This document shows positions 28,710-31,081 of a DNA stretch of 32,000 bases, piece by piece. The stretch's first letter is position 1; each line of letters opens with the position of its first letter. Position numbers and translations under genes: made by a program. The notes under the pieces are model-generated. The model worked only from the letters and a program-made list of their open reading frames with translations, had not been told where the DNA came from and ran no database searches. Source of the DNA: Longimicrobiales bacterium (GTDB lineage Bacteria > Gemmatimonadota > Gemmatimonadetes > Longimicrobiales > Gaopeijiaceae); contig CBDCSR010000003.1 of assembly GCA_965221785.1 (NCBI GenBank), positions 445,059-477,058 of the forward strand, given 5' to 3'.

Positions 28710-29165
28710 TTACTGACGCGCCAGCGAGCCCGAGAGGATGACGCGTCCGCAGAAATCGGTGTCGGCATGCTCGGAGACCTCCGCGCTTCTGCCGAAAAAC
28801 CTCACTGTGGAGCTGAGCGTTCTGGTGGGGCCGCAGAACTCCTCGTTGACCGAGGCGGAGAAGCCGCCACCCGTCAACTCGAGGAATCCGGTGGCGTCCA
28901 GTGTTCCTGTGACGGAGGGAATCTCGGCCGTGCCGCCGGAAGCCTGGATCTCGCCGGTAATCGTCACGCTTGCCCCGGCCTGTTCGACGAAGACCTGCAT
29001 CGACCCCTGTATCCCCTGCTGGTTCAGCAGGAACTGGACGATGAACGATCCGTGGTAGGTGCCCGCGACATCGGGAATCGGTCCGGTCGGCTCATCGTCG
29101 CCGCATGCGGCGACGGACAGCATGAGTACAGCTGCCGCAAGGCATCGTCGCCATGGCTGCGTCAT
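28710..29165 (-). CDS. Small lipoprotein (151 aa), no family recognised
   Basis: Only the C-terminal part of the 445-aa track ORF. MTQPWRRCLAAAVLMLSVAAC is a lipobox. AGGAGG lies 13 nt upstream. The gene ends 16 nt before the SDR gene start. Confidence 0.65.
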   Translation of the reverse strand: MTQPWRRCLAAAVLMLSVAACGDDEPTGPIPDVAGTYHGSFIVQFLLNQQGIQGSMQVFVEQAGASVTITGEIQASGGTAEIPSVTGTLDATGFLELTGGGFSASVNEEFCGPTRTLSSTVRFFGRSAEVSEHADTDFCGRVILSGSLARQ

Positions 29166-29237
29166 GATCGTGTCCGACCTCCTCTCGCGTCCACCGTTTA
29201 AACGCCAGTTGCCTGCTCGGAACAGCCTAGCCGCAGG

Positions 29238-29804
29238 ATGGGCGGGCTGCAACGGGTTCGAGCGGGGCTGGACGTTCCACCCGCGGCTCGCCATGGTGCC
29301 GGGGTGCAGCGCCGGGTGTTGGCTGGCATCTTGAAGGGGTGGAACGTGGAGAAAGGCCGGGATGGTGCACTCGCGTGGCGGTTGCGCGGCCATCTGTATC
29401 GGCGTATCGGCGAAGCGGGGTTTGTCCCCAGCCGTGCCGAACTCGGCGAGGGACTGGGCGCGGGAGCTGGCGAAGTGGACCGGGCGCTGGCGCTGCTCGC
29501 AGAGGCTCACGTCCTGGTTCTGGATGAGACCGGCGAAATCCGGATGGCCCATCCCTTTTCCGCCGTGGAGACGCCCTTCCGCGTGCGTACCCCAGGGACC
29601 GACTACTGGGCCAACTGCGCCTGGGACGCGCTCGCGATCCCGTTGCTCCTCGATGTCGACGGACGGACGCGAGCCGCGTGTCCCCGGTCGGGTGCCGCGA
29701 TCGACCTGACGGTGACCAACGGGCGAGTCGAACCCGCCGATGGCGCCGTGGTCCGCTTCCCCGTGCCGGCCCGGCGCTTCTGGGACGACATCGGCTTCAC
29801 CTGA
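29238..29804 (+). CDS. MerB (alkylmercury/organomercurial lyase)-like protein, conventional ORF terminated by an in-frame TGA at the second catalytic-Cys position
   Basis: YWANCAWDALAIPLLL..GRTRAACPRSGAAIDLTV parallels MerB [36 protein letters not shown] (recalled from memory), including the C-x-x-D catalytic pair. The likely real start is GTG 29346 (AAGGGG upstream), which gives a MerB-like length if readthrough is assumed. Confidence 0.7.
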   Translation: MGGLQRVRAGLDVPPAARHGAGVQRRVLAGILKGWNVEKGRDGALAWRLRGHLYRRIGEAGFVPSRAELGEGLGAGAGEVDRALALLAEAHVLVLDETGEIRMAHPFSAVETPFRVRTPGTDYWANCAWDALAIPLLLDVDGRTRAACPRSGAAIDLTVTNGRVEPADGAVVRFPVPARRFWDDIGFT

Positions 29805-30032
29805 CGCAACCTCCTGGCCTTCCGGTCGGAGGCGGATGCGGCCCGGTGGGCGGCTGCACGGGGCGTCGACCTCGGCGCGACGGTGCCCGTCGAGACGCTG
29901 GGAGAGTTGAGCCGCGGGTGGTATGCCGGCAGGCTCAGCGACCGTTGGCGTCCGTCTTCGGCGGAGTCGAAGCAGGCCCTCCTGCGAGAGGCGGGTCTCG
30001 AAGGCCCCTTCTGGCAGGTTCATCCGTCGTGA
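29805..30032 (+). other. In-frame continuation of the MerB-like gene beyond TGA 29802-29804 (76 codons incl. stop)
   Basis: Translates as RNLLAFRSEADAARWAAARGVDLGATVPVETLGELSRGWY..., paralleling the MerB C-terminus ([39 protein letters not shown]). Ends with a TGA that overlaps the GTG of the next gene (GTGA). Confidence 0.5.
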
Positions 30033-31081
30033 GAATCGCGACGGCACTCGGCAGCCTGGCGCCGATGCTGGCCCTGGCAGCGTGCGCCGAGTCCGGCCCG
30101 ACCACCTCGCTGGAAGGTCCGCTGGAAGGCTGCCCCGACCCCGGCGTGGGCACCACCATCGGAGGGCGTCGTGGAGCCGGGAGTGACGCCACCCCGTCTC
30201 CCGTCCGCCGGCTGGTGCTCATGGGAGGAGGCCCGGAGGAGGACGGCGCCGCCCGCCGTTTCGCCGGAGCGGCCGCCGGAGGCGATATCGTGGTGTTGCG
30301 CGCGACCGGGTCGCTGACCAGCTACCCGGATTACTTCTCGGTGGAACTGGCCCCAAGTCCGGCGCCGGCCTCGGTGGTCACGATTCGCACCGACACGCCT
30401 CCGCTGGCCGACCACCCGAGTGTCCTCTGCCGCCTCGGGAGAGCGGAAGCGGTATGGCTCGCGGGCGGAAGCCAGTGGAATTACCTGGGACGGTGGCCGA
30501 ATTCGGTCCACGTCGCGGTGGGGGAAGCAACGCGGCGCGGGGCGGCCCTGGGCGGGACCAGCGCCGGAGCGGTGTCGCTCGGCGAAGCCGCATTCGATGC
30601 CCGGCACGGCACCATAACGTCGAGCGAAGCTCTTTCGGATCCCGCCGATGCATCGGTCAGCGTGGGACCATCGAACCTGCCTCAGCCCGAACTCGCGAAC
30701 ACGATCGTGGACTCCCACTTCACGGAGCGGTCCCGTGAGGGGCGGCTGCTCACGTTCCTCGGCCGTCTGCTGGCTCAGCACCGCTCGGGTTCCTTCATCG
30801 GGATCGGGATCGACGAAGGGGTCGCGCTGGAAATCGAGGACGGAAGCTACCGCGTGTCTTCGTCGCGGGGCGGCGCGGTGTGGATGTACGAGGCCACGGG
30901 TCCGGCCGTCGTTCAACCGGGCAGGCCGCTCTCGCTGGACGGCATTCGCCGCGTGCGGCTGGCCGACGGAGCGTCGGGCCGCTGGCCCTTCCTGTTCGAT
31001 GACGCACAGCGCGTCCGGGAGCTCGTGGTGGAGGAGGGGGTGGTGCGGGTCAGGAGCGCGAGCGCTGCGCGCGACCGATGA
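30029..31081 (+). CDS. Peptidase S51 / cyanophycinase-like lipoprotein
   Basis: GTG 30029, then RIATALGSLAPMLALAAC (lipobox). LVLMGGGPE, VWLAGGSQWNY and GGTSAGAVSLGE (Ser nucleophile motif GxSAGA). Only the C-terminal 350 codons of the 467-aa track ORF are used. Confidence 0.75.
   Translation: MRIATALGSLAPMLALAACAESGPTTSLEGPLEGCPDPGVGTTIGGRRGAGSDATPSPVRRLVLMGGGPEEDGAARRFAGAAAGGDIVVLRATGSLTSYPDYFSVELAPSPAPASVVTIRTDTPPLADHPSVLCRLGRAEAVWLAGGSQWNYLGRWPNSVHVAVGEATRRGAALGGTSAGAVSLGEAAFDARHGTITSSEALSDPADASVSVGPSNLPQPELANTIVDSHFTERSREGRLLTFLGRLLAQHRSGSFIGIGIDEGVALEIEDGSYRVSSSRGGAVWMYEATGPAVVQPGRPLSLDGIRRVRLADGASGRWPFLFDDAQRVRELVVEEGVVRVRSASAARDR

What the first reader, a model, noticed from the sequence alone, without database searches (positions are those of the whole stretch)
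29238..30032. MerB-like gene with an in-frame TGA at the second catalytic cysteine position: candidate selenocysteine organomercurial-lyase homolog
The ORF carries the MerB Cys-x-x-Asp catalytic pair (NCAWD, compare MerB WCALD). It reaches TGA at 29802-29804 in the context FWDDIGFT-TGA-RNLLAFRSEADAARW. By eye this aligns with the MerB segment [18 protein letters not shown], which holds Cys159/160, the second catalytic thiol.

After the TGA the same frame continues for 75 sense codons. The sequence still parallels the MerB C-terminus and ends in a 4-nt GTGA overlap with the downstream gene. That overlap is the normal arrangement for a translated upstream gene. A UGA replacing a catalytic Cys codon, with homology conserved on both sides, is the classical signature used to find new selenoproteins.

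TGA is an ordinary stop in this contig (for example at 973, 7311 and 11853), so global recoding is excluded. I do not recall a Sec-containing MerB-family protein being described. A selenol at the Hg-binding site would be chemically interesting.
Basis: partly seen in the sequence, partly recalled or inferred. Interest (0 to 1): 0.8.

Follow-up and report, generated by a model that had tools for sequence, protein, structure and literature searches.

The report
Unannotated selenocysteine MerB-like lyase family
The in-frame TGA in this MerB-like gene is almost certainly read as selenocysteine. It marks a large family in Gemmatimonadota and Chloroflexota that databases cut short at this codon. It is a second selenocysteine branch of the MerB superfamily, after the known SaoL.

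Summary
A MerB-like ORF (probable start GTG 29346) reaches TGA at 29802-29804. The same frame continues for 75 codons to TGA 30030-30032.

The TGA aligns with MerB Cys159, and NCAWD aligns with Cys96/Asp99.

- **Conservation of the TGA.** All 90 related loci examined (37-89% identical; Gemmatimonadota, Chloroflexota and unclassified MAGs) have TGA at this column, never TAA or TAG. Their true terminators are mixed.
- **The tail is coding.** In 87 of the 88 loci whose contig reaches a terminator it is 65-90 codons long. It is under purifying selection (dN/dS 0.08-0.47).
- **Recoding signal.** Downstream lies a conserved hairpin with a GGUC tetraloop at +23 from the U of UGA. In E. coli fdhF the GGUC loop is at +22. 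Synonymous sites there are frozen.
- **Cys counterparts.** Among 150 family representatives, 77 have Cys at the column and 61 stop exactly before it.

Nonsense decay, split genes and global recoding are therefore excluded.

I could not test for selA/B/C/D in the source genome.

This family fails the SaoL tests (39 bits against a cutoff of 140, no CU motif, no SAO locus). I found no description of it.

Its function as a carbon-metal lyase is inferred, not shown.

The parts
29346..29801 (+). First part of the coding sequence (152 codons; GTG start). It holds the N-terminal helical domain and the MerB core. The catalytic Cys91 (TGC 29616-29618) and Asp94 (GAC 29625-29627) sit in NCAWD and correspond to MerB Cys96/Asp99.
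   Evidence: Identical to database protein P0001, 152 aa. Pfam MerB 60.5 bits alone. Aligned to MerB PDB chains. An alternative start at ATG 29238 is possible.
29802..29804 (+). In-frame TGA, proposed selenocysteine codon (residue 153). It aligns with MerB Cys159.
   Evidence: TGA is at this column in 90 of 90 related loci. Cys (TGC) is here in non-Sec homologs.
29815..29836 (+). SECIS-like hairpin. The core stem is 29819-29823 paired with 29828-29832 (CUUCC/GGAGG). The GGUC tetraloop is at 29824-29827, +23 to +26 from the U of UGA. The outer pairs are formed in many relatives but mismatched in the window copy.
   Evidence: Core pairs are 90-100% paired in 71 distinct sequences, with covariation in outer pairs. 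Synonymous sites are frozen: Arg CGG 67 and AGG 5, never CGC; Ser TCG 69 of 69; Glu GAA 70% against a background of 28%. E. coli fdhF has its GGUC loop at +22. The local minimum-free-energy fold forms this hairpin in 60 of 71 sequences.
29805..30029 (+). Second part of the coding sequence (75 codons after the Sec codon). It holds the rest of the MerB domain plus a conserved C-terminal extension (W..L...WY..R...FW).
   Evidence: Pfam MerB continues to residue 229 of the 264-residue ORF from ATG 29238. The tail is conserved in all relatives. dN/dS is 0.21-0.47 in pairs that include the window. GC3 is 0.83 in this frame.
30030..30032 (+). True terminator (TGA). It overlaps the GTG start (30029) of the downstream gene.
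   Evidence: Terminal stops in relatives are TGA 54, TAG 22 and TAA 12.
30029..31081 (+). Downstream neighbour, probably co-transcribed: a lipoprotein-like protein with a weak peptidase S51 match. It is conserved next to the gene only in the window's close relatives (L002, L003).
   Evidence: Pfam S51 scores 23.3 bits, just under the cutoff of 23.9. tblastn finds it only in L002 and L003.

Best explanation
The gene at 29346-30032 encodes one 228-residue protein of the MerB (organomercurial lyase) fold. UGA 29802-29804 is decoded co-translationally as selenocysteine.

**How recoding works (inferred).** A short hairpin with a GGUC tetraloop starts about 10-17 nt after the UGA. It would recruit SelB carrying Sec-tRNA(Sec), as the E. 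coli fdhF SECIS does.

**What the Sec does (inferred).** The selenol takes the place of MerB Cys159. Together with Cys91 and Asp94 (MerB Cys96/Asp99) it forms a Cys/Sec/Asp site. That site binds a soft metal and protonolyses a carbon-metal bond.

**Shown here:**
- conservation of the TGA;
- translation-level selection on the tail;
- the conserved hairpin;
- Cys/Sec alternation in the family;
- the MerB fold of the family.

**Not shown:** SelB dependence, actual selenium incorporation, and the substrate. The substrate may be an organomercurial or another organometal. There is no mer operon around the gene.
For: **Position.** The TGA aligns with MerB Cys159 and NCAWD with Cys96/Asp99. Pfam MerB spans the TGA at 94.5 bits.

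**Truncation in databases.** The roughly 100 closest database proteins (47-100% identical) all stop at ...GFT, covering about 65% of the query.

**Conservation of the codon.** The window plus loci L001-L089 are 37-89% identical and come from several phyla. All 90 have TGA at the column, never TAA or TAG. Of the 88 loci whose contig reaches a terminator, 87 have a 65-90-codon in-frame tail; L051 is the exception, and two contigs end first. Their real terminators are TGA 54, TAG 22 and TAA 12.

**Selection on the tail.** dN/dS after the TGA is 0.08-0.47, about the same as before it.

**Hairpin.** The GGUC loop is present in 62 of 71 distinct sequences. Core pairs are 90-100% formed. There is covariation at 25-36, 23-38 and 21-40. 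Synonymous sites are constrained. The loop sequence and spacing match E. coli fdhF, +22 against +23.

**Cys forms.** In the wider family, 77 of 150 representatives have Cys at the column and 61 end exactly before it. Two Cys forms use TGC. Their Arg is coded CGC, which destroys the GGUC loop.

**No global recoding.** TGA is a normal stop in the window, terminating 9 of 19 genes.

**Fold.** An AlphaFold2 model of the Cys-form homolog P0165 (38% identical, pLDDT 96.5) matches only MerB2 and MerB in the PDB.

**Precedent.** SaoL has Sec at the MerB Cys159 position.
Against: **Sec machinery not found in what I could search.** I saw no selA, selB, selD or tRNA-Sec in the window or in about 690 kb of related loci. 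That sample is under 1% of each genome, so the result is uninformative.

**Weak hairpin in the window copy.** It has only 5 bp (-5.0 kcal/mol). The window's minimum-free-energy fold is a different hairpin with a UUCC loop.

**Folding energy is not exceptional** compared with shuffled sequence.

**No Rfam SECIS match**.

**Little compensatory evidence.** The core stem hardly varies, so support rests on frozen synonymous sites rather than compensatory changes.

**Function unsupported by context.** There is no mer operon and no conserved neighbourhood. NCBIfam MerB equivalog scores are far below cutoff.
Confidence: 0.85

Rival explanations
1. Simple nonsense pseudogene: a Cys codon (TGC/TGT) mutated to TGA and the gene is dead.
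For: A single-base change gives TGA from TGC. Databases annotate a 152-aa truncated product. Isolated decayed copies do exist, such as L051 with an extra TAG.
Against: The TGA is conserved in 90 of 90 loci down to 37% identity and across phyla. The tail is intact in 87 of the 88 loci that reach a terminator, with dN/dS 0.08-0.47. A pseudogene would accumulate frameshifts and a mix of stop codons.
Confidence: 0.01
2. Two separate polypeptides. The gene ends at TGA and gives a 152-aa protein. The conserved tail is translated on its own as a roughly 75-aa protein, or is reinitiated, and the two associate.
For: Gene callers sometimes call the tail as a separate 61-78-aa ORF.
Against: Conservation starts at the very first codon after the TGA. 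No start codon is conserved there: codons +1 to +4 are mostly GCG/ACG/ATC/CTC. The stop is always TGA, whereas ordinary terminators of the same genes are 39% TAG or TAA. Cys forms are single chains with Cys at the junction. The junction residue is the catalytic position.
Confidence: 0.03
3. Read-through without selenium. UGA would be decoded by a near-cognate or suppressor tRNA (Trp, Cys, Gly or Arg), stimulated by the downstream hairpin, or by a lineage-specific UGA reassignment.
For: The Sec machinery is not demonstrated. Some database entries show W or G at the site. One real lineage has GGA (Gly).
Against: The 'W' entry is a TGA translated with code 4 by a gene caller. TGA terminates 9 of 19 genes in the window and 54 of 88 family genes, so there is no reassignment. 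The homologous residue is Cys in about 87% of the 89 full-length representatives, which is the Sec/Cys signature. The hairpin has the SelB-type GGUC loop at the fdhF spacing.
Confidence: 0.06
4. The family is a selenoprotein family, but this particular genome has lost Sec decoding. Here only the truncated protein would be made.
For: The genome was not checked for sel genes. The window copy has the shortest version of the stem, with a C-C mismatch at the sixth pair.
Against: The tail of the window copy is intact and evolves under constraint against its closest relatives. dN/dS is 0.24 against L002 and 0.21 against L003. The GGUC loop and core stem are intact.
Confidence: 0.05

Closest known systems
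SaoL, the MerB-like organometallic lyase selenoprotein (NCBIfam NF040728; Haft & Gwadz 2022 bioRxiv 10.1101/2022.07.06.499078, J Bacteriol 2023)
   Same: Both have the MerB fold (PF03243). In both, Sec aligns with MerB Cys159, opposite the Cys96/Asp99 equivalents. Both are routinely truncated at the UGA in databases, with about 50-75 residues missing.
   Different: The window protein scores 39 bits against the SaoL cutoff of 140, and only over residues 76-166. Its motif is T-U-[A/R/S], not C-U. It has a longer conserved C-terminal extension. There is no nine-gene SAO neighbourhood and no conserved neighbourhood at all. Hosts are Gemmatimonadota and Chloroflexota MAGs from soils, sponges and sediments, not the strict anaerobes that carry SaoL.
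MerB organomercurial lyase (plasmid R831b; PDB 3F0P, 1S6L) and MerB2 (PDB 5C17)
   Same: The Pfam domain and the fold are shared. The catalytic Cys-x-x-Asp and the second thiol position are conserved, with Sec in place of Cys159.
   Different: Identity is about 20%. NCBIfam MerB models score 51 and 43 bits against cutoffs of 193 and 200. There is no Cys160. There are no merR/T/P/A neighbours. The tail is about 35 residues longer. Substrate is unknown.
E. coli fdhF SECIS (bacterial selenocysteine insertion sequence)
   Same: Both are hairpins immediately 3' of the UGA inside the coding region. Both have a GGUC apical tetraloop, at +22 in fdhF and +23 here. The loop G and U are conserved.
   Different: The stem sequence differs (CUUCC/GGAGG against GGU-U-GCA/UGCACC). 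No bulged U is evident in the window copy. SelB binding has not been tested. No Rfam model matches.

Membership tests
Bacterial selenoprotein gene (UGA decoded as Sec) | In-frame UGA conserved among orthologs, with homology continuing downstream | tested here: met
   90 of 90 loci have TGA. 87 of the 88 loci that reach a terminator have a 65-90-codon conserved tail, with dN/dS 0.08-0.47.
Bacterial selenoprotein gene (UGA decoded as Sec) | Homologs with Cys at the same column | tested here: met
   77 of 150 representatives at 50% identity have Cys at the column, and 61 end just before it. The codon is TGC in L102 and L104.
Bacterial selenoprotein gene (UGA decoded as Sec) | SECIS hairpin shortly 3' of the UGA with a conserved G(U) in the apical loop | tested here: met
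   GGUC loop at +23. Core stem 90-100% paired. Synonymous sites frozen. Same loop and spacing as E. coli fdhF. This is structure prediction and conservation only, not a binding test.
Bacterial selenoprotein gene (UGA decoded as Sec) | selA, selB, selC (tRNA-Sec) and selD present in the same genome | not testable with these tools
   None found in the window or in about 690 kb of related loci. The rest of the genomes could not be read.
Bacterial selenoprotein gene (UGA decoded as Sec) | Selenium demonstrated in the protein (75Se labelling or mass spectrometry) | not testable with these tools
   Requires an experiment.
MerB organomercurial lyase (EC 4.99.1.2) | PF03243 domain above the gathering score, and the MerB fold | tested here: met
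   94.5 bits against 27. The model of the Cys-form homolog matches only MerB and MerB2, with TM 0.55-0.71.
MerB organomercurial lyase (EC 4.99.1.2) | Catalytic Cys96, Asp99 and Cys159 | tested here: met
   Cys91 and Asp94 are aligned, with Sec153 at the Cys159 column. NCAWD is conserved in the Sec-form loci examined (NCVWD in L008).
MerB organomercurial lyase (EC 4.99.1.2) | NCBIfam equivalog/exception model cutoffs (NF009710, NF033555) | tested here: not met
   51.2 against 193 and 43.3 against 200 bits.
MerB organomercurial lyase (EC 4.99.1.2) | mer operon context (merR, merT/P, merA) | tested here: not met
   No mer genes among the 20 annotated window genes. No conserved neighbourhood across loci.
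MerB organomercurial lyase (EC 4.99.1.2) | C-Hg protonolysis activity | not testable with these tools
   Requires an enzyme assay.
SaoL (NF040728) | HMM score at or above 140 bits | tested here: not met
   39 bits, partial match over residues 76-166.
SaoL (NF040728) | C-U dipeptide at the active site | tested here: not met
   T-U in 74 of 75 distinct sequences.
SaoL (NF040728) | Nine-gene SAO neighbourhood (SaoB/P/C/T/E and others) | tested here: not met
   Neighbours vary by clade. They are a lipoprotein and an S51-like protein in the window, and MauE-like plus CarboxypepD_reg-like proteins in another clade. I did not search with Sao profiles specifically.

The most novel reading that the evidence does not exclude
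This would be a large, so far unrecognised family of stand-alone selenoenzymes. It occurs in mostly aerobic soil, sediment and sponge bacteria (Gemmatimonadota, Chloroflexota). It would cleave carbon-metal bonds using a Cys/Sec/Asp site, on methylmercury or another organometal, independently of mer operons.

If so, these abundant phyla would be hidden demethylators, and current merB-based surveys, which see only truncated ORFs, would miss them. It would also contradict the view that aerobes rarely keep selenoproteins.
Probability: 0.3. Interest if true: 0.75.

Novelty: new member of a known kind. Interest (0 to 1): 0.55.

Why it matters
**Annotation.** Hundreds of database entries for this family are truncated at the UGA. 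They appear as 'organomercurial lyase' of about 150 aa, lacking the catalytic Sec and a third of the protein. NCBI nr entries MCY3705668.1, MXW08731.1 and MYC52582.1 are examples. A family model with the Sec position would correct this.

**Selenium biology.** The family adds a widespread selenoprotein to Gemmatimonadota and Chloroflexota. The 2026 review of prokaryotic selenoproteomes (PMC13188914) lists only SaoL as a MerB-like selenoprotein. It also states that aerobic bacteria rarely retain selenoproteins.

**Metal biochemistry.** A second, independent MerB branch with Sec at the Cys159 position suggests that a selenol at this metal-binding site has a recurrent advantage. That makes a Sec-against-Cys comparison in C-Hg or other C-metal bond cleavage directly testable.

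Tried and rejected
- **Rfam, whole window and local permissive scan.** No SECIS or other RNA family.
- **Single-sequence folding of the window.** The minimum-free-energy fold is a UUCC-loop hairpin, no better than shuffles. Across 71 sequences that fold is only 66% paired and shows no covariation, so I rejected it in favour of the GGUC-loop hairpin.
- **tRNA-Sec and Sel proteins.** I ran ARAGORN on the window and all loci, and tblastn with E. coli SelA, SelB and SelD against about 690 kb of loci. Nothing was found, which is uninformative given the sampling.
- **Other selenoprotein genes.** A scan for TGA plus hairpin plus coding signal on both sides, in the window and loci, found none convincing.
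- **Conserved gene neighbourhood.** There is none family-wide, only clade-level synteny.
- **Literature on Sec use in Gemmatimonadota.** Nothing usable. Haft & Tolstoy 2025 (mSystems) is not held, so I did not check it.
- **First AlphaFold2 run (P0102, shallow C-terminal alignment).** pLDDT was below 50 after residue 127, so I discarded it.
- **Exact look-ups of window proteins to identify the source record.** These failed.
- **Genome-contig scan.** The single-protein query returned only 8 loci.
- **'W' and 'G' full-length homologs as natural variants.** W was a code-4 gene-calling artefact. G (GGA) is real in one lineage.

Full report
**1. The observation**

The sequence is as described. The + strand ORF reaches TGA at 29802-29804 in the context FWDDIGFT-TGA-RNLLAFRSEADAARW. 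The same frame then runs for 75 sense codons to TGA 30030-30032. The GTG of the next ORF (30029) overlaps that stop as GTGA.

The mechanical ORF starts at ATG 29238. The database protein identical to this gene (P0001, 152 aa) starts at GTG 29346, and I take that as the likely start.

Pfam MerB (PF03243) matches the conceptual read-through product across the TGA. Residues 107-229 cover profile positions 1-125 of 126, at 94.5 bits against a cutoff of 27. The part before the TGA alone scores 60.5 bits.

Against solved structures, the TGA column falls on MerB Cys159 and on the equivalent Cys of MerB2. The Cys and Asp of NCAWD fall on Cys96 and Asp99.

Third-position GC is high in the same frame on both sides of the TGA, 0.79 and 0.83.

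TGA is an ordinary terminator here. It ends 9 of 19 confident genes in the window. This is the only TGA in the window with same-frame coding signal on both sides that is not a junction between two genes.

**2. Related sequences**

A search of about 5.8 billion proteins returned 576 relatives. The roughly 100 closest (47-100% identical) are almost all 145-190 aa long and cover about 65% of the query. Every one I read ends in ...WDDIGFT or ...WDDIHFT, exactly before the TGA column.

I fetched DNA for 89 related loci. One came from an exact look-up, eight from species-representative genomes and eighty from JGI metagenomes, where 514 relatives were found. The named genomes are Gemmatimonadetes MAGs, a sponge MAG labelled Gammaproteobacteria, Thermomicrobiaceae, Anaerolineales, Chloroflexia and Promineifilum.

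All 90 sequences, the window included (75 distinct), are 37-89% identical to the window protein. All have TGA at this column and never TAA or TAG. In 87 of the 88 loci whose contig reaches a terminator, 65-90 sense codons follow in frame, with a conserved protein pattern (L.FRSE...W......G......W.L...WY..R.......FW). L051 is the exception and two contigs end first. The real terminators of the same genes are TGA 54, TAG 22 and TAA 12.

In 20 pairwise comparisons, dN/dS of the post-TGA segment is 0.08-0.47. That is the same range as the segment before the TGA. So the tail is translated and selected as protein, in phase with the upstream part. This excludes a nonsense pseudogene.

No start codon is conserved at the beginning of the tail, which argues against a separately translated ORF.

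**3. The recoding signal**

Nucleotides after the TGA are more conserved than the amino acids require. The block CTTCCGGTCGGA is nearly invariant. Compared with the codon usage of these same genes:

| Codon after TGA | Observed | Background |
|---|---|---|
| +7 Arg | CGG 67, AGG 5, CGC 0 | CGC 41% |
| +8 Ser | TCG 69 of 69 | TCG 36% |
| +9 Glu | GAA 70% | GAA 28% |
| +5, third base | C in 73 of 75 | n/a |

These positions form a hairpin. In the window it is C29819-U-U-C-C, then G-G-U-C, then G-G-A-G-G29832.

On 71 distinct sequences the five core pairs are 90-100% formed. Pair 25-36 occurs as U-A 49, U-G 19 and C-G 2. Outer pairs covary: 23-38 as U-A 40, C-G 5, G-C 2; 21-40 as G-C 20, C-G 11. 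Overall pairing is 81%, against 48-59% when the 3' partners are slid by 1-3 columns.

The hairpin that single-sequence folding prefers in the window has a UUCC loop. It is only 66% paired across the family and shows no covariation, so I reject it.

The loop is GGUC in 62 of 71 sequences. The local minimum-free-energy fold forms this hairpin in 60 of 71.

I extracted the E. coli K-12 fdhF gene for comparison. Its Sec codon (codon 140) is followed by a hairpin whose GGUC tetraloop starts at +22 from the U of UGA. Here it starts at +23. From my own knowledge, the loop G and U of the fdhF element are the SelB contacts.

Rfam has no matching model.

Two Cys-form homologs with DNA available have TGC at the column. 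They code the following Arg as CGC, which abolishes the GGUC loop. With only two examples this is weak, but it fits the constraint being tied to the TGA.

**4. Cys counterparts and fold**

I built a profile from full-length family members and searched 1.84 billion representatives at 50% identity. It found 3588 relatives. Among the best 150:

- 77 have Cys at the column;
- 61 end exactly one residue before it;
- a handful have other residues (A, W, Y, H, R, Q).

One 'W' entry that I could check is a TGA translated with genetic code 4 by the gene caller. One lineage really has GGA (Gly), with the hairpin block still intact.

An AlphaFold2 model of the Cys-form homolog P0165 is 38% identical to the window protein over its full length and has pLDDT 96.5. 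Its only significant PDB matches are MerB2 (5C17) and MerB (3F2G, 3F0O and others), with TM 0.55-0.71.

**5. What it most likely is and does**

*Shown:* a MerB-fold protein family in which a conserved UGA occupies the position of the second catalytic thiol. The codon is followed by a SelB-type hairpin and by a tail that is selected as protein. Cys sits at the same position in sister lineages. This is the standard computational signature of a bacterial selenoprotein.

*Inferred:* SelB-dependent insertion of Sec. Also inferred is a Cys91/Sec153/Asp94 site that binds a soft metal and protonolyses a carbon-metal bond, as MerB does with Cys96/Cys159/Asp99.

The substrate is open. The window contains no mer genes and no sel genes. 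There is no family-wide conserved neighbourhood. The window's clade has a small lipoprotein upstream and an S51-like lipoprotein downstream. Another Gemmatimonadota clade has a MauE/DoxX-like membrane protein and CarboxypepD_reg-like proteins upstream.

**6. What I could not do**

I could not test for selA/B/C/D in the source genome. None lies in the window or in about 690 kb of fetched flanks. That is under 1% of each genome. Exact look-ups of window proteins failed. This is the main remaining gap and is listed as the first next step.

**7. Comparison with what is known**

SaoL is a MerB-like organometallic lyase of strict anaerobes. It has a C-U motif whose Sec superposes on MerB Cys159, and it sits in the nine-gene SAO locus. 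Reviews from 2022 and 2026 list it as the only MerB-like selenoprotein.

The window protein is not SaoL. It scores 39 bits against a cutoff of 140, has T-U instead of C-U, has no SAO locus and occurs in different phyla and habitats.

It is also not a canonical MerB by the NCBIfam models, at 51 and 43 bits against cutoffs of 193 and 200.

I found no description of this branch in the literature I could search. NCBI entries for it are truncated 'organomercurial lyase' proteins. One recent paper on new selenoprotein neighbourhoods (Haft & Tolstoy 2025) was not available to check.

**8. Verdict**

- The interpretation that the UGA at the second catalytic Cys position is read as Sec is supported, with confidence of about 0.85.
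- The kind of thing, a MerB-like selenoprotein, is already known. This is a new and large member family.
- Interest is moderate to high for selenoproteome and mercury-cycling specialists.
- There is an immediate practical consequence for annotation.

Noticed in passing
L093:10001-10708 (JGI Ga0502304_2737481, 62-kb contig; proteins P0163/P0100): One lineage has GGA (Gly) instead of TGA at the Sec column, while the SECIS-like block CTCTTCCGGTCGGAGGAG is still intact. This could be a recent Sec-to-Gly replacement. It is seen in three cluster members from different sources.
   Followed up: partly
L092:43-732 (protein P0095): A 'full-length' database homolog with Trp at the Sec column is really a TGA translated with genetic code 4 by the gene caller. 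W or G at such sites in protein databases can be calling artefacts.
   Followed up: yes
L051:984-1039: This copy has a second in-frame stop (TAG) 14 codons after the TGA, replacing the conserved Trp. It is probably a decayed copy or a sequencing error.
   Followed up: no
L001:9603-10043; L094:6859-9992; L098:8463-9994 (also L010-L014, L095-L097, L099, L100): In one Gemmatimonadota clade (13 loci), a MauE/DoxX-like membrane protein gene lies on the same strand just upstream of the Sec-MerB-like gene. In eight of these loci, one or two CarboxypepD_reg-like genes lie there too. This is absent from the window's clade.
   Followed up: partly
window:14169-15248 (+): A SAM-dependent methyltransferase with a sterol methyltransferase C-terminal domain (PF08498, 74 bits). 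That is unusual for bacteria. The window's closest relatives are sponge-associated MAGs, where bacterial sterol methyltransferases bear on the sponge-biomarker debate.
   Followed up: no
window:28710-29165 (-) within the mechanical ORF 28710-30047: The 445-aa minus-strand ORF that overlaps the whole MerB-like gene is spurious beyond ATG 29165. The real gene is a 151-aa lipoprotein (signal peptide plus Cys), conserved in L002 and L003.
   Followed up: partly
alignment of family representatives (P0183, P0184, P0187 and others): In many Cys-form members, the Asp of the Cys-x-x-Asp motif is replaced by Cys (C-x-x-C plus the distal Cys). This suggests a three-thiol metal site in a sister subfamily.
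   Followed up: no
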